DNA from: Escherichia phage AV123
Sequence record: OR352953.1
Strand: one strand, 5' to 3'
Length of the DNA: 64,000 nt
Positions 781 through 29,001 of the stretch are shown one piece after another. Position numbers and translations under genes: made by a program. Under the pieces are notes generated by a model that saw only the letters and a list, made by a program, of their open reading frames with translations, was not told the origin of the DNA and did not search any database. Numbering within the stretch: position 1 is the stretch's first letter; every line of letters starts with the position of its first letter.

Positions 781-918
781 ATGAACGCATCACAGCAGAT
801 CGAAAAATTCAACCGCAGCAAGGCGCGTAAAGATTGGAACGAAGAGATCACCAAAAAAGGCGACAAGCGGAACAAAACAAAGAGAGATCGCAGCACAAAA
901 AGATACTGGAACGAATAA
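781..918 (+). CDS. hypothetical small basic protein (45 aa)
   Basis: ATG 781 with AAGAGGAAG RBS; K/R-rich; immediately followed by terminator. Confidence 0.4.
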   Translation: MNASQQIEKFNRSKARKDWNEEITKKGDKRNKTKRDRSTKRYWNE

Positions 919-923
919 CAAAA

Positions 924-947
924 AAGGGCGCAATAAGCGCCCTTTTA
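924..947 (+). terminator. rho-independent terminator (GGGCGC-AATAA-GCGCCC + TTTT)
   Basis: GC stem and T-tract directly after stop at 918. Confidence 0.6.
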
Positions 948-5120: not shown

Positions 5121-5133
5121 TACACGGTAAAAG

Positions 5134-5162
5134 AAAGGGGCGCACTAAGCGCCCTTTTTTGT
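5134..5162 (+). terminator. rho-independent terminator (GGGCGC-ACTAA-GCGCCC + TTTTTT)
   Basis: GC stem plus T-run after stop 5120; same family as 924-947. Confidence 0.65.
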
Positions 5163-5504
5163 ATTCTTTTTCACAATGGAAGCGACACGTAAAGAATAGG
5201 CGTAAAGGTGGCGTAAAACCATCTAAAACCGACTGTAACCGCTTAAACAAGGTAGGAATGATTAATCACCTTACCAGGATGAAAAAGCTGTTATAAAGCT
5301 ATCTAGAGCGTTTAAAGCACATAGGAAATAATTTGCTTTTTATCTTGCCTTTTATCCTGCTTTTGATTATTATTATGGAACGGGCGGCACCTGGGGACAG
5401 GGGAAGATAATCACCGGAAGATCCCGCTATATATTAATAGCTAATACCTATCAAACAACAAAACATCAAAGGAATAAACTATCAAATCTTTACAATCCTA
5501 CCTA

Positions 5505-5889: not shown

Positions 5890-6273
5890 ATGAGCAATAT
5901 CATCAACCTGGCGGCTACTGTAAACGGTAAAGACTTTAACGGCGCTGTAGACCGTGATCCTATGTGGTGCTTGTCAGTGTTTAAAGGTGACTTGGTTGAA
6001 GTTAGAACAACCGAAGGGTATAGCGATGATTATAAATGCGAGATCCATTTACACAACTGGTACACGGGTAAAACTTATGCACTGAATCATGCGTTTATCG
6101 GCAAGGTTGAATATAGAGAAATGATCGACGAAGAAACGGGGCAAGATTTTAGCGAGCATGTTTATATTCGTTCAGAAACATTAGCCGAACGTTTGATCGA
6201 GAAAATGAAAGCAAAAAATAAAATTAATTTATCTCATTGGATTGATATAACAAACGATCCAGCTTATCAGTAA
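5890..6273 (+). CDS. hypothetical protein (127 aa)
   Basis: track ORF; GAGGAA RBS. Confidence 0.6.
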   Translation: MSNIINLAATVNGKDFNGAVDRDPMWCLSVFKGDLVEVRTTEGYSDDYKCEIHLHNWYTGKTYALNHAFIGKVEYREMIDEETGQDFSEHVYIRSETLAERLIEKMKAKNKINLSHWIDITNDPAYQ

Positions 6274-6287
6274 ATAACATTTCAAAC

Positions 6288-6316
6288 AAGGGCGCTTATT
6301 GCGCCCTTTCTTTTTA
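6288..6316 (+). terminator. rho-independent terminator (AGGGCGC-TTATT-GCGCCCT + TTTCTTTTT)
   Basis: GC stem plus T-run; third member of the GGGCGC terminator family. Confidence 0.65.
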
Positions 6317-6520
6317 CCTAAATAAAGATGATAGCTTTTACCTATCAAAAACGTTCACCGAAAAAAGTGAATAGATCGCGGTATCGAGCTAATCAAGGAG
6401 CAGATGAACAACCATACCATGAAGATCATAAGGCGCTTACAACGTGTTTTAGACCGCTTATTTTTAATTTCTTCATGTAATTACCTGGCAAAAACAGCCT
6501 TTTTCTTGTCTTTCCTCTTA

Positions 6521-6600
6521 AATGATAATCATTCTTATTTATAGCTGATTATTTATGCAATAAATTGCATAATGCAATAATGAGAATCATTCTTAACTTA
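6521..6600. repeat. direct repeats AATGA(T/G)AATCATTCTTA (x2, ~57 bp apart) flanking palindrome ATGCAAT-AA-ATTGCAT
   Basis: seen directly in sequence; motif resembles Fur-box hexamer arrays. Confidence 0.5.
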
Positions 6601-7147: not shown

Positions 7148-7436
7148 TAATGTTTAGAACATTGGCTATAATATAAGCTATCCAATAATAAACATGGTGA
7201 ATAATGACACTGATGATCATAATGCGCCACCCTCCAGGGGGCGCTATGTGAACACAAAGAAATCTTTCTTGTCAAGAAAAATATCACCATTATTGCGCAA
7301 AATTATTTATATCTGAATAGATGATTTTTCATACTATTGCCCCCTTGATTATTACCATTTGTTGAGCCTACTTTCTTAAAAGCGCAATAAAATAGAATTA
7401 TATTGATTTTTAGTCGGTTTTATAGTACAGAAAGTA

Positions 7437-7458
7437 TGCAAATGATAATCATTATCAG
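7437..7458. promoter_or_regulatory. Fur-box-like operator (AATGATAATCATTATC)
   Basis: 16 contiguous nt identical to the 3' part of the enterobacterial Fur consensus GATAATGATAATCATTATC; related copies at 6521, 6578 and 7624-7654. Confidence 0.3.
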
Positions 7459-7773
7459 CTATCTTCCACGGGTGGCACTATTTCACACCAGATCATTTCA
7501 TTTGGCAAGGTGTATATAGATGTTTAGACTTGCCAAGCCATTGATTTCCTTAGAATTTATCTGTTTTGTTGTGAGTAGTACCTTTCTTGCTTAGAAAATA
7601 ATCAAAAGTCTTATAAGTCATTGAATGATAATACAAATGATAATTATTCTCATTGATATTTGAGGGGGACGGTCGGCAGAAATCGGGGGGTGCTGAAAAT
7701 CGCGTTAAGCACCTCTCGCAAGCGAGCAGTATTTTGCGGCAAGTTATTGATATTATTGACTTTACGCTTATGA

Positions 7774-19378: not shown

Positions 19379-19384
19379 CACATA

Positions 19385-19408
19385 AACCCGCTTCGGCGGG
19401 TTTTCTTG
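19385..19408 (+). terminator. rho-independent terminator (CCCGC-TTCG-GCGGG + TTTT)
   Basis: tetraloop hairpin and T-tract after stop 19378. Confidence 0.65.
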
Positions 19409-23745: not shown

Positions 23746-23768
23746 TTGTCAACAAAAAACCCGCCGAA
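23746..23768 (-). terminator. terminator hairpin (AACCCGC-TTCG-GCGGGTT + T-run on minus strand)
   Basis: GC tetraloop hairpin between 23780 gene and 23697 gene. Confidence 0.55.
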
Positions 23769-23779
23769 GCGGGTTTATA

Positions 23780-26527: not shown

Positions 26528-27100
26528 TTAATGTGTTAATGAAACTGCGTAGCTAAACACAGGTTCAGATATTACATCGGCTACAGTAATAAAAACGTCT
26601 TCGTCTTGAGTTGTTTCTACACGACATACAGTTACACCATTCACCACAAATTCAACGCAATGTGGAATATCTTCACAAACGAAGGTAGTGTAAGTAACAC
26701 CCAAAGCATCATACAAAGATTTAACAGTGTTTGCAAGTGCCGCAGTTTCTTCTTTTTCTGAGACAATGAATGCTGTAACAATAAGATTGTTTGCATAGTT
26801 TAAACTGTCCTCTATAGCCAATGATTTACAAGGTAGTAATGCAAAATATTTACCTGGTTTAATCAGACCTGCTTCCCATTGATTCAAAATTGCCTGGGAT
26901 GGTTTAGTAATATAAAACAGATTTTCACTTGGGTTATCAATATTACTTCTGGCGATACAACGTGAAGGATTATTAATATCAAATACATGATCAAAATCTA
27001 CACAAACAGGTAAACTGAAAGGTGTGAATTTTTTACCTAATAATCCTATGGCTGATAATATGTTTGCTGTGCTTATCTTCCCGTTAAAAGCTAAACGCAT
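26528..27100 (-). CDS. hypothetical protein (190 aa)
   Basis: track ORF. Confidence 0.55.
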   Translation of the reverse strand: MRLAFNGKISTANILSAIGLLGKKFTPFSLPVCVDFDHVFDINNPSRCIARSNIDNPSENLFYITKPSQAILNQWEAGLIKPGKYFALLPCKSLAIEDSLNYANNLIVTAFIVSEKEETAALANTVKSLYDALGVTYTTFVCEDIPHCVEFVVNGVTVCRVETTQDEDVFITVADVISEPVFSYAVSLTH

Positions 27101-27111
27101 ACTTAACTCCT

Positions 27112-27315
27112 TTAACTAGCAACCGTAACTTCCGAACTTTCTTCTTTCGTACTGTCTACGATATGCCTGGTGGCAATATACGAGACTTGCCAGTTACCAT
27201 CTGGTGTAGTCTCAATAAGTACCCTATCTACTTCGAGAAAATGCAAAAATTCAACCATCGCTCGCTTCGATAGGAATTGTTTTTTAACAGTCTCCTCAAA
27301 AGATTGAACTGCCAT
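27112..27315 (-). CDS. hypothetical protein (67 aa)
   Basis: track ORF. Confidence 0.45.
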   Translation of the reverse strand: MAVQSFEETVKKQFLSKRAMVEFLHFLEVDRVLIETTPDGNWQVSYIATRHIVDSTKEESSEVTVAS

Positions 27316-27324
27316 GTTTCCTCC

Positions 27325-27987
27325 TTATTTAATATTCAATTTTGCACAAAGACGTTGTACCGCTTTGGCATCGAACAAACTCCCACGAATAGTTCTCTTT
27401 CCTGATTCATTCAGATGCTTTGCAATCGTCATATATGGCGTTTTACAAGCTCTGTATGCAACTAAAGAATCTTTTAAAGAAAGCGCAAACTCTCTTGAGC
27501 GTTTTGCTTCTTCCGTTTTCGTATAATCTGTTCTTTTGTATTTAGGGTTTGCTGCACCAAGAAGCGTTCCCTTCGCTTTTGCTACCTTAAGGCTCTTCTT
27601 AACACGATCAGATATTGCACGAGCCTCTTCTTCTGCCAGAACTGCTAAAATATTTATTATCATATTTTCAGCGGAGGGCATAGTTGCTATTCGTACATTA
27701 ATCATCTCTAATAAGGTTGCAACAGAGGCTGTGTTACGTCCAAGACGGTCAACCTTAGCAACAACAAGTGTAGCACCTGTTTCTTTGCAAAGATTAACAG
27801 CTTTTACAAGCTCTCTACGTTGCTTCCAATCGCCTTTACCCGAATAAAACTCTGCAAAGCTACCTACAATAGTATAATTTTCTTGTGAATCCAGGAAGCG
27901 TTGAATATCTGCTTCCTGTGATTCTATACCATACTGGTTGCCTTGTTGTTTCTTCTTAGAAAGTCGATGATATAGTACAAACTTCAT
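27325..27987 (-). CDS. small serine recombinase (resolvase/invertase family, 220 aa)
   Basis: N-terminal YHRLSK with catalytic Ser, VAKVDRLGRN motif, C-terminal HTH-like segment. Confidence 0.75.
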   Translation of the reverse strand: MKFVLYHRLSKKKQQGNQYGIESQEADIQRFLDSQENYTIVGSFAEFYSGKGDWKQRRELVKAVNLCKETGATLVVAKVDRLGRNTASVATLLEMINVRIATMPSAENMIINILAVLAEEEARAISDRVKKSLKVAKAKGTLLGAANPKYKRTDYTKTEEAKRSREFALSLKDSLVAYRACKTPYMTIAKHLNESGKRTIRGSLFDAKAVQRLCAKLNIK

Positions 27988-28044
27988 AATACCCTCCTGT
28001 TCTGTTACAGGAAGTATGCACTACCTTAATGTTAAAGTCAACAG

Positions 28045-28248
28045 TTAAGTAGTGGTAATATCATCCTCTTGAATACTAGGGTCAACTTCTGCAAAGATAG
28101 CCTCTACAGGAATTTCTTCACCTGCTATTCTAGAAAGAAGCACTGAACCAATAGCTTTTGCGTGTTCTTCGGATTCCGCATAAACATTAGTTCCTGTGTC
28201 TTTTTTCTTAGTTTCGTTAAAATATACCAGATAGTAATTGTATGCCAT
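28045..28248 (-). CDS. hypothetical protein (67 aa)
   Basis: track ORF. Confidence 0.45.
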   Translation of the reverse strand: MAYNYYLVYFNETKKKDTGTNVYAESEEHAKAIGSVLLSRIAGEEIPVEAIFAEVDPSIQEDDITTT

Positions 28249-28499
28249 TATTCATCCCAATCGCCGTTACGAGCACTTTCAAGAACCTTGACAACTTCTG
28301 CATACTCTACAGCTAAACCAGCACATACTTCAGCTTGTTTTGCAATTGCTTGTTTAAAGAACATAGCGATTGCAACACTCTGTGTTGTGTGAATGTTATC
28401 TGCTTTAGTTGATACATGAAGATCAAAATCTTCTTCATCAAAGGTGAGTTCCATAGTAACAATAAATTTCTCGGTCATAAAAATGCTCCTCTTAAACAA
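28248..28499 (-). CDS. hypothetical protein (83 aa)
   Basis: track ORF. Confidence 0.45.
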   Translation of the reverse strand: MFKRSIFMTEKFIVTMELTFDEEDFDLHVSTKADNIHTTQSVAIAMFFKQAIAKQAEVCAGLAVEYAEVVKVLESARNGDWDE

Positions 28500-29001
28500 A
28501 ATAGAAAGGTTGAGTTAAACCCAGCCTGTTTTTTGGGTCGTAGACGTACCAAGCATATGCTGTCTTATCAGTACCACCTGCAACAAAAGATGGTCGTTCA
28601 GAAAGAACAATTAAATTTGTTGGTGGATTCTGTTTATGGAATTCCCTTCGTTTAATAGACTCTAGGAACCCAAGACGCAACAAGTATATGCAAACGTCTG
28701 CTTCTTTTAAGCTCTTTTGCAAGAACTCAAGTGCAAGTTTGAATGGGGGATTTGTGATTATAATATCCGGCTTAGTATGCCATTCGTGGTTAAAATAATC
28801 TTTCCCTTCTTCTAACTCACAATATTCTGATCCTTCTGGAAAATGTTGATAAATTGCAGCAGCAGCGCCTTTACACGGTTCTGCAAAAATAAAACCTTCT
28901 TCTTTAAGGTTATTAAAATCTATTACACTAAATAATGCATTTATACATTTTTGTGGAGTAGGATAGTAATCAGTTGGTGGACGATCATACTTATTTGCCA
29001 C
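28492..29001 (-). CDS. phage N6-adenine (or N4-cytosine) DNA methyltransferase (169 aa)
   Basis: DYYPTP N-terminal motif and NPPF catalytic motif IV. Confidence 0.7.
   Translation of the reverse strand: MANKYDRPPTDYYPTPQKCINALFSVIDFNNLKEEGFIFAEPCKGAAAAIYQHFPEGSEYCELEEGKDYFNHEWHTKPDIIITNPPFKLALEFLQKSLKEADVCIYLLRLGFLESIKRREFHKQNPPTNLIVLSERPSFVAGGTDKTAYAWYVYDPKNRLGLTQPFYFV

What the first reader, a model, noticed from the sequence alone, without database searches (positions are those of the whole stretch)
27325..28044. Serine recombinase in a lytic-phage context with a small palindrome upstream
The 220-aa protein has the resolvase N-terminal catalytic domain (YHRLSK, VAKVDRLGRN) and a C-terminal HTH, a size typical of DNA invertases or resolvases rather than large serine integrases. 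No attachment site or integration module is visible. The sequence TCCTGT-TCTGTT-ACAGGA just upstream of the gene (~27990-28010) is a candidate operator or crossover half-site. Invertases in phages usually flip tail-fibre segments, so a matching inverted-repeat pair may lie outside this window.
Basis: partly seen in the sequence, partly recalled or inferred. Interest (0 to 1): 0.5.

Follow-up and report, generated by a model that had tools for sequence, protein, structure and literature searches.

The report
Orphan serine recombinase in lytic coliphage
This is the already-annotated small serine recombinase gene (gp053) of phi92-like lytic E. coli phages; the enzyme looks active but has no visible DNA target in the phage, and the palindrome upstream most likely forms an RNA hairpin that hides the gene's ribosome-binding site, not a recombination site.

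Summary
The ORF is real: 27325-27987 on the minus strand, 220 aa. It is the orthologue of phi92 gp053 and is at least 99% identical in about 55 Justusliebigvirus genomes. It has a resolvase catalytic domain (Pfam E 8e-22) with every catalytic residue conserved, a long αE helix and a C-terminal helix-turn-helix. dN/dS is at most 0.08. Sequence and fold place it closest to the N-terminal third of large serine recombinases, and far from Hin/Gin invertases.

The 18-bp palindrome exists (27995-28012), but such palindromes are common in the window. It has no second copy in a 149-kb relative. It is lost in relatives whose DNA-binding domain is nearly identical. Its spacer length varies and its mismatches are all G·U-compatible. 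It overlaps the Shine-Dalgarno sequence, and its left arm lies between a conserved σ70-like promoter and the predicted transcription start. I read it as an IS10-like fold-back hairpin that blocks translation from read-through transcripts; this is inferred, not shown.

Tiling a whole genome against about 55 assemblies gave no inversion isomers and no inverted-repeat pair. The one inverted 1.16-kb segment lies outside the window, lacks terminal repeats and is not a simple isomer. The enzyme's substrate remains unknown. The gene is already annotated, so interest is modest.

The parts
27325..27987 (-). CDS of the 220-aa small serine recombinase (orthologue of phi92 gp053)
   Evidence: ORF list and sequence. 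100% or 99.5% identical by tblastn to about 55 Justusliebigvirus records, annotated DNA invertase, serine recombinase or recombinase family protein. phi92 annotation.
27565..27978 (-). Catalytic (resolvase) domain plus αE helix, residues 4-141
   Evidence: Pfam PF00239, E 8.4e-22. Predicted fold of β-strands and helices with the long αE helix at 108-138. Foldseek matches Bxb1, gamma-delta, Sin, TP901-1 and phiC31.
27958..27960 (-). Codon of the predicted nucleophile Ser10 (TCT) within the YHRLS motif
   Evidence: Aligns with S10 of gamma-delta resolvase. Y6, R8 and S10 are conserved in at least 90% of homologues; D80, R81, R84, E121 and R128 are invariant.
27334..27510 (-). C-terminal four-helix DNA-binding domain (residues about 160-218), a helix-turn-helix with an inserted 'NESGKRTIRGS' loop as in the first part of the large-serine-recombinase recombinase domain
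   Evidence: AlphaFold helices. Alignment to the gamma-delta helix-turn-helix. The NCBIfam CcrB model aligns residues 4-212 to profile positions 10-225 of 542. Homologue P0077 carries PF07508. No Pfam hit for this protein itself.
27993..27998 (-). Shine-Dalgarno sequence AGGAGG, 5 nt upstream of the ATG
   Evidence: Read from the sequence. phi92 annotates the same ribosome-binding site.
27993..28014 (-). Hairpin CUUCCUGU-AACAGA-ACAGGAGG in the RNA sense. The left arm (anti-SD) is 28014-28007, the loop 28006-28001 and the right arm 28000-27993.
   Evidence: RNAfold gives -11.8 kcal/mol with SD paired probability 0.94-0.95. It is the strongest SD-occluding structure among 110 genes. Different stems do the same job in relatives (L004, L093, L095, L096, L097).
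28013..28041 (-). σ70-type promoter-like site: -35 TTGACT (28041-28036), 17-bp spacer, -10 CATACT (28018-28013). Predicted +1 at A28006.
   Evidence: Consensus scan, 9 of 12 matches. TTGAC[AT]-N17-hexamer is kept in 11 of 11 distinct upstream sequences from relatives although the spacer sequence varies freely, and A is at the predicted +1 in 10 of 11. The TSS is inferred, not mapped.

Best explanation
Shown: the ORF encodes a small serine recombinase that is conserved under purifying selection and has a complete catalytic constellation. It is phi92 gp053, a core gene of the virulent Stephanstirmvirinae myoviruses. The protein consists of a catalytic domain, an αE helix and one helix-turn-helix domain, and its closest relatives are the N-terminal portions of large serine recombinases. 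Inferred: the gene is its own small transcription unit inside a long co-directional operon. A conserved σ70-type promoter sits in the 57-bp gap upstream. Transcripts reading through from upstream genes contain both arms and so sequester the ribosome-binding site. Transcripts started at the gene's own promoter begin just after the left arm and remain translatable. This is the 'fold-back inhibition' logic of IS10 and IS50 transposase genes, and it would keep a DNA-breaking enzyme at a low, promoter-defined level. The palindrome is therefore not the recombination site. Speculative: the enzyme's DNA substrate is not an invertible phage segment. My leading guess, at roughly 25-30%, is resolution or cyclisation at a single-copy site per genome, acting on replicating multimeric or terminally repeated phage DNA in the way Cre/lox or plasmid multimer-resolution systems do. 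Action on host or competitor DNA comes next.
For: Identity and competence: Pfam PF00239, E 8e-22. PHROG 125 'DNA invertase', E 1.5e-31. Y6, R8, S10, D80, R81, R84, E121 and R128 are conserved in 22- and 48-sequence alignments that include gamma-delta resolvase. AlphaFold pLDDT 88.8, with Foldseek top hits all serine recombinases (Bxb1 E 7e-8, gamma-delta, Sin). dN 0.09-0.26 with saturated dS gives dN/dS of 0.05-0.08. Core gene: at least 99% identity in about 55 Justusliebigvirus records, 78% in Klebsiella phages, about 57% in some 80 Phapecoctavirus records, and syntenic in metagenomic relatives. Promoter: TTGAC[AT]-N17-hexamer in 11 of 11 distinct upstream sequences. Hairpin: it ranks third of 110 by energy and is the strongest SD-occluding fold. 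SD paired probability is at least 0.95 in read-through RNA in 7 of 11 distinct relatives, using different stems and registers, and at most 2% of shuffles reach the observed value. In RNA starting at the predicted +1 the probability is 0.17-0.65. No terminator is predicted between the upstream gene and the hairpin. Not a DNA site: unique in a 148.9-kb genome, lost in L003, L010 and L094 despite a near-identical helix-turn-helix, and variable spacer with only T:G mismatches. Not an invertase of phage DNA.
Against: No transcription start, RNA structure or protein activity has been measured; the promoter and +1 are predictions. RNAalifold finds no consensus structure because the anti-SD slides in register between relatives. 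Four of 11 relatives have weak or alternative folds: in L001 the anti-SD pairs upstream instead, L003 and L010 are weak, and L005 is marginal. In the Phapecoctavirus orthologue (L002) the arrangement is much less clear. For the enzyme's role there is no positive evidence at all. No candidate site was found next to the gene or in the terminal repeat. Resolving concatemers would seem counter-productive for a phage that packages from them.
Confidence: 0.5

Rival explanations
1. One reading: a Hin/Gin-type DNA invertase that flips a phage segment (for example tail-fibre genes) bounded by inverted repeats lying outside the window.
For: Public records call it 'DNA invertase' and the best PHROG is 'DNA invertase'. 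A weak NCBIfam hit to the Mpi master invertase, which acts on distant sites (E 6e-8, far below cut-off). One 1.16-kb segment outside the window does differ in orientation between genomes.
Against: The tail-fibre and structural 50 kb and the 12 kb either side of the gene are collinear in about 55 assemblies, as is the rest of the genome. No inverted-repeat pair other than terminators and Fur-like boxes exists in 148.9 kb or in the window. The 1.16-kb segment has the same breakpoints in all inverted genomes but form-specific junction DNA (23 vs 64 bp and 202 vs 425 bp), and end-to-end complementarity is at chance level, so it is not an interconvertible isomer. No HTH_7 domain, and only E about 1e-3 to Gin structures. 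76 relatives in viral contigs show no systematic inverted repeats near the gene.
Confidence: 0.06
2. The palindrome is a protein-binding DNA site: an operator for autorepression, or the crossover site of a resolvase-type system, as with res upstream of tnpR.
For: Resolvase genes commonly have their site immediately upstream (established knowledge of Tn3/gamma-delta). The palindrome overlaps the -10 to +1 region of the predicted promoter. L004 has a perfect 10-bp-arm palindrome of 26 bp at the same place, and L001 has a different palindrome over the -10 hexamer. A single site per genome is what a multimer-resolution system needs.
Against: The half-site sequence is not conserved between relatives with 85-88% identical proteins and an almost unchanged helix-turn-helix. 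The palindrome is absent in L003, L010 and L094. Spacer length runs from 6 to 10 nt. Mismatches are exclusively T opposite G, which pairs in RNA but breaks symmetry in DNA. The right arm is simply the Shine-Dalgarno sequence. No accessory subsites lie nearby.
Confidence: 0.08
3. The enzyme acts in trans on DNA that is not the phage's own, such as host chromosomal or prophage switches or a co-infecting competitor, as a takeover or anti-defence function.
For: No target is detectable in the phage genome. The gene is early-type, with a σ70 promoter among host-takeover-like small genes. It is retained with intact catalysis across a virulent subfamily. Host Pin-type recombinases are reported to switch phage-adsorption phenotypes (abstracts of PMC12529663 and 10.1101/2025.03.28.646004, listed).
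Against: Purely circumstantial: no host site was identified or tested here, and relatives occur in phages of many unrelated hosts.
Confidence: 0.15
4. It is a selfish or decaying passenger, a remnant of a small mobile element, with no role in the phage life cycle.
For: An own promoter plus a fold-back hairpin is the architecture of insertion-sequence transposase genes. Neighbouring genes are uninformative small ORFs.
Against: Strong purifying selection (dN/dS at most 0.08). Fixed syntenic position and presence in every Justusliebigvirus and Phapecoctavirus record retrieved. No flanking repeats.
Confidence: 0.07
5. It is a domesticated recombinase that now serves only as a DNA-binding regulator without catalysis.
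For: No recombination product is visible in genome comparisons.
Against: Every residue of the catalytic constellation, including the nucleophile, is conserved down to 31% identity. That conservation would not be maintained for binding alone.
Confidence: 0.04

Closest known systems
phi92 gp053 (YP_009012384.1) and its orthologues in Justusliebigvirus and Phapecoctavirus, annotated 'DNA invertase', 'recombinase family protein' or 'resolvase'
   Same: It is the same gene: 99-100% amino-acid identity and the same neighbours (methyltransferase gp056, gp055, gp054 upstream; gp052, gp051 and the NinI-like phosphatase downstream).
   Different: Nothing of substance differs. The public names are homology-based, and no paper in the searchable library reports a function. 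Several orthologues are left as 'hypothetical protein' or misnamed.
Large serine recombinases (Bxb1, phiC31, A118, TP901-1 integrases; CcrA/CcrB), N-terminal third only
   Same: The extended N-terminal motif YxRxSxxxQ...(about 10 aa)...SxxxQ. The αE helix is followed by a helix-turn-helix carrying the 'LNxxGxxTxxG' loop typical of the start of the LSR recombinase domain. The best NCBIfam hit is CcrB (residues 4-212 to profile 10-225) and the best Foldseek hit is Bxb1 over 247 columns.
   Different: Only 220 aa. It lacks the rest of the recombinase domain, the zinc-ribbon domain and the coiled coil that define LSRs and control att-site selection and directionality. No PF07508 hit, scores far below the family cut-offs (35.6 vs 900 bits), and no attP-like context.
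Small resolvases and invertases (gamma-delta/Tn3 resolvase, Sin, Hin, Gin)
   Same: Size class, domain order (catalytic domain, αE, C-terminal helix-turn-helix) and the catalytic residues.
   Different: Sequence relation is remote (E 1e-5 to 1e-3). The region between β4 and αE is shorter and there is a 10-residue insertion after the Ser motif. No HTH_7 domain, no res-like cluster of subsites, and no hix/gix-type inverted repeats or invertible segment.
Fold-back inhibition of IS10 and IS50 transposase translation (Davis, Simons & Kleckner 1985; from my own knowledge)
   Same: A sequence complementary to the ribosome-binding site lies just upstream of the gene's own transcription start. Only transcripts entering from outside can form the occluding stem.
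   Different: Here it is in a phage operon, for a serine recombinase rather than a DDE transposase. It is predicted only, with no TSS or translation data. It is strong in 7 of 11 relatives rather than universal, and there is no column-wise covariation.

Membership tests
Serine recombinase superfamily (resolvase/invertase catalytic domain, PF00239) | Significant match to the catalytic-domain profile above the curated threshold | tested here: met
   78.3 bits against a 23.3-bit gathering score, E 8.4e-22, residues 4-141.
Serine recombinase superfamily (resolvase/invertase catalytic domain, PF00239) | Nucleophilic Ser and the Arg/Asp constellation (gamma-delta R8, S10, D67, R68, R71, R125 equivalents) | tested here: met
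   R8, S10, D80, R81, R84 and R128 align with gamma-delta and are invariant or at least 90% conserved in 22- and 48-sequence alignments.
Serine recombinase superfamily (resolvase/invertase catalytic domain, PF00239) | Mixed α/β catalytic fold followed by the long αE helix | tested here: met
   AlphaFold pLDDT 88.8, helix 108-138. Foldseek probability 1.0 to Sin, gamma-delta, Bxb1 and TP901-1.
Serine recombinase superfamily (resolvase/invertase catalytic domain, PF00239) | Site-specific cleavage and strand exchange through a phosphoserine intermediate | not testable with these tools
   Needs biochemistry.
Hin/Gin/Cin/Pin DNA invertases | Invertible segment adjacent to the gene, bounded by ~26-bp inverted crossover sites | tested here: not met
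   No inverted-repeat pair in the window or in a 148.9-kb relative. The 25 kb centred on the gene is a single collinear piece in about 55 genomes.
Hin/Gin/Cin/Pin DNA invertases | Close sequence kinship with Hin/Gin and a C-terminal HTH_7-type domain | tested here: not met
   Only E 8e-4 and 9e-4 to Gin structures. No HTH_7 or other Pfam hit in the C-terminus at E up to 1.
Hin/Gin/Cin/Pin DNA invertases | Fis-dependent recombinational enhancer | not tested
   No method was applied, and the question is moot without crossover sites.
Tn3/gamma-delta/Sin-type resolvases | res site with a crossover subsite plus accessory subsites next to the gene | tested here: inconclusive
   No repeated dyad motifs beyond chance in 26900-28700, but the binding motif is unknown so a diverged site could be missed.
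Tn3/gamma-delta/Sin-type resolvases | Carried by a replicative transposon or plasmid whose cointegrates or multimers it resolves | tested here: not met
   The context is a virulent myovirus operon of early or metabolic genes. No transposase or plasmid genes.
Large serine recombinases (phage integrases, Ccr, TndX) | More than 400 aa with the full recombinase domain (PF07508), zinc-ribbon domain and coiled coil | tested here: not met
   220 aa with only PF00239 detected. The CcrB and XisF models match only their N-terminal ~225 positions, far below cut-off.
Large serine recombinases (phage integrases, Ccr, TndX) | attP/attB integration module in a temperate element | tested here: not met
   phi92-like phages are virulent, and no repressor or att context appears in the annotated region.
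IS10/IS50-type fold-back inhibition (regulatory architecture of the palindrome) | Anti-SD sequence upstream of the gene's own TSS, so that only read-through RNA occludes the ribosome-binding site | tested here: inconclusive
   Predicted geometry fits: the left arm is at -8..-1, and SD pairing is 0.95 in read-through RNA against 0.20 in own-start RNA. The same holds in 7 of 11 relatives. The TSS is unmapped and RNAalifold gives no consensus.

The most novel reading that the evidence does not exclude
A catalytically intact serine recombinase is kept as a core, tightly throttled early gene by a whole subfamily of strictly virulent phages that have no invertible segment, att site or res site of their own. 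It would then perform a job not yet described for site-specific recombinases in a lytic cycle. Two candidates are rearranging host or competitor DNA (for example resetting host phase-variable receptor or defence switches) and Cre-like cyclisation or resolution of the terminally repeated genome at a still-unrecognised single site.
Probability: 0.2. Interest if true: 0.65.

Novelty: already known. Interest (0 to 1): 0.3.

Why it matters
The gene itself adds nothing new: it has been annotated in phi92 and dozens of relatives for years. Three points have some value. First, phage-therapy screens flag 'recombinase' or 'invertase' genes as possible lysogeny markers. This analysis shows the gene is not an integrase module and that about 55 assemblies contain no recombinase-attributable inversion isomers, which supports treating these phages as virulent. 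Second, a conserved, apparently active serine recombinase without a substrate in a lytic phage is a small open question, and it can now be tested directly through S10A mutants, binding-site mapping and long reads. Third, the promoter and anti-SD arrangement is a simple, testable example of insulating a gene from operon read-through.

Tried and rejected
1. I searched for a second copy of the palindrome in the window and in a whole 148.9-kb relative. There is none within 3 mismatches.

2. I searched for inverted repeats in the window, in the whole VEcB genome and in 76 loci of family relatives from viral contigs. Only terminator hairpins, Fur-box-like palindromes, one diverged ATPase paralogue pair and chance-level hits turned up.

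3. I tiled the whole genome against the phage collection to find orientation isomers. The only orientation difference was a 1.16-kb early-gene segment. I followed it up and rejected it as a recombinase product. All inverted genomes share the same breakpoints, the junctions carry form-specific DNA, and there are no terminal inverted repeats. AMO3598 and pEC-M2929 and 92CQ each show one extra match place that I did not resolve.

4. I looked for res-like repeated subsites around the gene and found nothing beyond chance.

5. I looked for a dyad site in the phi92 terminal repeat as a possible cyclisation site. Only Fur-box-like sequences were found.

6. RNAalifold on 12 upstream sequences gave no consensus structure because of register shifts, so the hairpin argument rests on per-sequence folds and shuffles.

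7. Pfam and PHROG scans of six neighbouring genes, looking for a directionality factor or accessory protein, were uninformative.

8. Contexts of distant homologues were all phage-like and gave no functional clue.

9. Literature searches on phi92, Justusliebigvirus and recombinase or invertase found no functional study.

10. A phage-specific promoter motif around TAGTGCATACT was rejected: 24 matches against 22.4 expected.
Full report
**The object**

The window region holds a 663-nt ORF on the minus strand (27325-27987, 220 aa). It sits inside a long array of co-directional small genes. Megablast and tblastn show that the window is a phi92-like coliphage of the genus Justusliebigvirus, subfamily Stephanstirmvirinae. 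The ORF is phi92 gp053. It is 99.5-100% identical in about 55 deposited genomes, where it is variously called DNA invertase, serine recombinase, resolvase, recombinase family protein or hypothetical protein. Orthologues at 78% occur in Klebsiella phages, at about 57% in some 80 Phapecoctavirus records, at 50% in a Citrobacter phage, and at 33-49% in 130-140-kb Vibrio and Shewanella phages. Hundreds of more distant ~220-aa relatives occur in viral contigs.

**The protein**

- Pfam finds the resolvase catalytic domain at residues 4-141 (E 8.4e-22).
- In alignments with gamma-delta resolvase and 20-47 homologues down to 31% identity, the catalytic residues are invariant or nearly so. These are the nucleophile S10 (in YHRLS), R8, the D80-R81-x-x-R84 motif (VDRLGRN), E121 and R128.
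- dN/dS against relatives of 71-81% identity is 0.05-0.08, with synonymous sites saturated.
- AlphaFold with a 48-sequence alignment gives a confident model (pLDDT 88.8). It shows the α/β catalytic core, a long αE helix (108-138), a short linker and four C-terminal helices.
- Foldseek against the PDB returns only serine recombinases at E below 1e-3, headed by the Bxb1 large serine integrase over the whole length.
- By sequence the solved small recombinases are remote: Sin 1e-5, Tn3 2e-5, gamma-delta 7e-5, Gin about 1e-3.
- The best NCBIfam model is the large serine recombinase CcrB, matching only its first ~225 of 542 positions and far below its cut-off.
- Two further features resemble large serine recombinases: the extended motif after the serine (KKKQQGNQYGIESQ) and the 'IAKHLNESGKRTIRGS' loop between helices two and three of the helix-turn-helix.

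I therefore describe the protein as a small serine recombinase of a large-serine-recombinase-like lineage that ends after the first DNA-binding subdomain. It is not a Hin/Gin-type invertase, and it is too short to be an integrase of the large type.

**The palindrome**

TCCTGTTCTGTTACAGGA lies at 27995-28012 and is unique in the window. Palindromes of this size are frequent, though: there are 291 with 6-bp arms and 3-8-nt spacers in the window. Read on the coding strand it is CUUCCUGU-AACAGA-ACAGGAGG. Its right arm is the gene's Shine-Dalgarno sequence, 5 nt from the ATG.

Among 110 gene starts in the window, the -32..+15 stretch of gp053 ranks third by folding energy (-11.8 kcal/mol; mean -4.4, sd 3.0). 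The two stronger ones are terminator hairpins that leave the Shine-Dalgarno sequence largely free, with pairing probabilities of 0.50 and 0.11 against 0.94 for gp053.

Immediately upstream is a σ70-like site: TTGACT, a 17-bp spacer, then CATACT (28041-28013). I collected the same region from 11 distinct relatives.

- All 11 keep TTGAC[AT], an exactly 17-bp spacer of freely varying sequence, and a -10-like hexamer.
- Ten of the 11 have an A at the predicted +1.
- The predicted start in the window, A28006, falls directly after the left arm (28014-28007).

Folding the read-through form and the own-start form of each RNA gave the following.

- In 7 of 11 sequences the Shine-Dalgarno sequence is at least 95% paired in read-through RNA, and at most 2% of shuffles do as well.
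- In RNA starting at the predicted +1 it is only 17-65% paired.
- The stems differ between relatives. Examples are CTCCTCT/AGAGGAG in L004, CUCUCCU/AGGAGGG in L093 and UUUCCU/AGGAGG in L097.
- Loop length ranges from 6 to 10 nt, and every non-Watson-Crick position is a U opposite G.
- Four relatives are weak or fold differently. In L001 the anti-SD pairs with an upstream segment across the -10 hexamer.
- Because the pairing register slides, RNAalifold reports no consensus structure.

I conclude, as an inference, that the palindrome is the DNA image of an RNA hairpin that blocks translation of transcripts entering from the upstream genes. No terminator is predicted in between. Transcripts from the gene's own promoter would remain translatable, which is the logic known from IS10 and IS50 transposase genes.

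**Why the palindrome is not a recombinase site**

- No second copy exists within 3 mismatches in a complete 148.9-kb relative.
- The left arm is replaced by unrelated sequence in L003, L010, L094 and L100. Where the encoded protein was aligned (L003, P0012), the C-terminal helix-turn-helix is almost unchanged: MTIAKHLNESGKTTIRGSKFDAKAVQRLC against MTIAKHLNESGKRTIRGSLFDAKAVQRLC.
- Variable half-site spacing is incompatible with a dimer site that is cut with a fixed 2-bp stagger.
- No cluster of accessory motifs lies nearby.

**Is there an invertible segment?**

I assembled a complete unannotated relative (OZ035773, 148,885 bp). The window is collinear with it. I then tiled it in six 24-25-kb megablast queries against 50,697 phage records.

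- In the structural and tail-fibre 50 kb, every Justusliebigvirus record matched as one place on one strand. The only exceptions were records whose ends cut the match.
- The same held for the 25 kb centred on the recombinase gene (mostly a single piece) and for the remaining regions.
- The exception was in the mosaic early region. A targeted query showed that a 1.16-kb segment lies in the opposite orientation to its flanks in about 21 records and in Phapecoctavirus. The segment is phi92 131,090-132,246 and holds gp214-gp216, a divergent promoter region and the first 34 codons of gp217.
- This segment is outside the window, about 10 kb before position 1.

Direct comparison of six genomes gave three results.

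- All inverted genomes share identical breakpoints.
- The junctions contain form-specific DNA: 23 vs 64 bp on one side and 202 vs 425 bp on the other, including an extra gene and a truncated gp217.
- Complementarity between the two ends is at the level of shuffled controls.

The two forms therefore cannot be interconverted by a simple inversion. This is an old, inherited rearrangement, not a recombinase switch.

A whole-genome inverted-repeat search found only palindromic terminators, Fur-box-like palindromes and one 64%-identical ATPase paralogue pair. Seventy-six loci of family relatives showed no systematic repeats around the gene. Inversions smaller than about 80 bp would escape this test. 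So would heterogeneity within a single lysate.

**What the enzyme does**

This remains unknown, and nothing in the searchable literature addresses it. Several facts are established.

- The enzyme appears catalytically competent.
- It is under strong constraint.
- It is kept by an entire virulent subfamily.
- It is expressed from its own host-type promoter.
- It has no inverted or directly repeated target in the phage genome.

A single-copy site would suffice for Cre-like cyclisation of the terminally repeated genome (phi92 has a 343-bp direct terminal repeat) or for resolution of replicative multimers. That is my leading guess, held weakly at about 25-30%. Action on host or competitor DNA is the next option. 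A regulator-only role is unlikely given the conserved catalytic residues, and a passenger role is unlikely given purifying selection and fixed synteny.

**Verdict**

The gene is already annotated in public records. The promoter and anti-SD architecture and the documented absence of any target are modest additions. Interest is 0.3.

Noticed in passing
Outside the window: L104 (phi92 NC_023693) 1591-2747 = phi92 131,090-132,246; L090 25091-26247 (OZ035773 75,091-76,247); L105 (PD114) 1590-2745: A 1.16-kb early-gene segment lies in opposite orientation in about 21 of ~55 Justusliebigvirus genomes and in Phapecoctavirus. It holds gp214-gp216, a divergent promoter region and the first 34 codons of gp217. 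Breakpoints are identical in all inverted genomes, junction DNA is form-specific, there are no terminal inverted repeats, and gp217 is truncated to 59 aa in the inverted form. A ~289-bp indel (gp215 region) occurs in both orientation classes, which implies either exchange between the forms or recurrent deletion.
   Followed up: partly
window 6521-6539, 7441-7459, 7636-7654 (the last two lie within the stretch matching the phi92 343-bp terminal repeat, about 7365-7707): Three near-consensus E. coli Fur-box palindromes, for example AATGATAATCATTATC. There were 6 strand-matches against 0.5 expected, and no shuffle in 100 reached 6. They lie in or next to the genome's terminal-repeat and early-promoter region, which suggests iron/Fur-responsive control of early transcription or Fur titration. 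Similar boxes occur elsewhere in the VEcB genome.
   Followed up: partly
window 916-946, 5126-5174, 6270-6318, 19382-19404, 23756-23778: Families of G+C-rich palindromic terminator-like hairpins (AAAGGGCGC..GCGCCCTTT and AAACCCGC..GCGGGTTT) recur in both orientations. They account for all the strong 'inverted repeats' in the window.
   Followed up: no
Phage collection records MG065639, MG065645, MG065656, MG065689 ('Campylobacter phage A150/A145/C3/A110a'): Four 146.4-kb records labelled as Campylobacter jejuni phages are 98-99% identical to E. coli Justusliebigvirus genomes throughout. They differ from one another mainly in start point and strand. The likely causes are contamination or mislabelling of host.
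   Followed up: no
Orthologues in Phapecoctavirus records (H207, H209, H212); paper PMC10269720: The 57%-identical recombinase orthologue is annotated 'methionine ABC transporter ATP-binding protein' in several records and 'hypothetical protein' in most. One paper states that ESCO5 and ESCO37 encode no recombinase, although tblastn finds the gene in both.
   Followed up: partly
window 26528-27100 (-), orthologue of phi92 gp051: This 190-aa protein is named 'histidyl tRNA synthetase' in RefSeq and PHROG 4806, but it has no Pfam hit and is far too short for a HisRS. The name looks like a propagated annotation error.
   Followed up: no
L001 5951-5990 (metagenomic relative, 78% identical protein): In this relative the anti-SD stretch instead pairs with an upstream segment (ATGAAGAG...CTCTTCAT), forming a palindrome that spans the -10 hexamer. 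It could be an alternative regulatory fold or an operator. It is not explained by the fold-back model.
   Followed up: no
OZ035773 61,390-61,898 and 77,824-78,332 (outside the window): Two AAA-ATPase-like genes are 64.5% identical over 513 bp and lie in inverted orientation 16 kb apart. This is the only long inverted repeat in the genome, and no genome shows the intervening region inverted.
   Followed up: no
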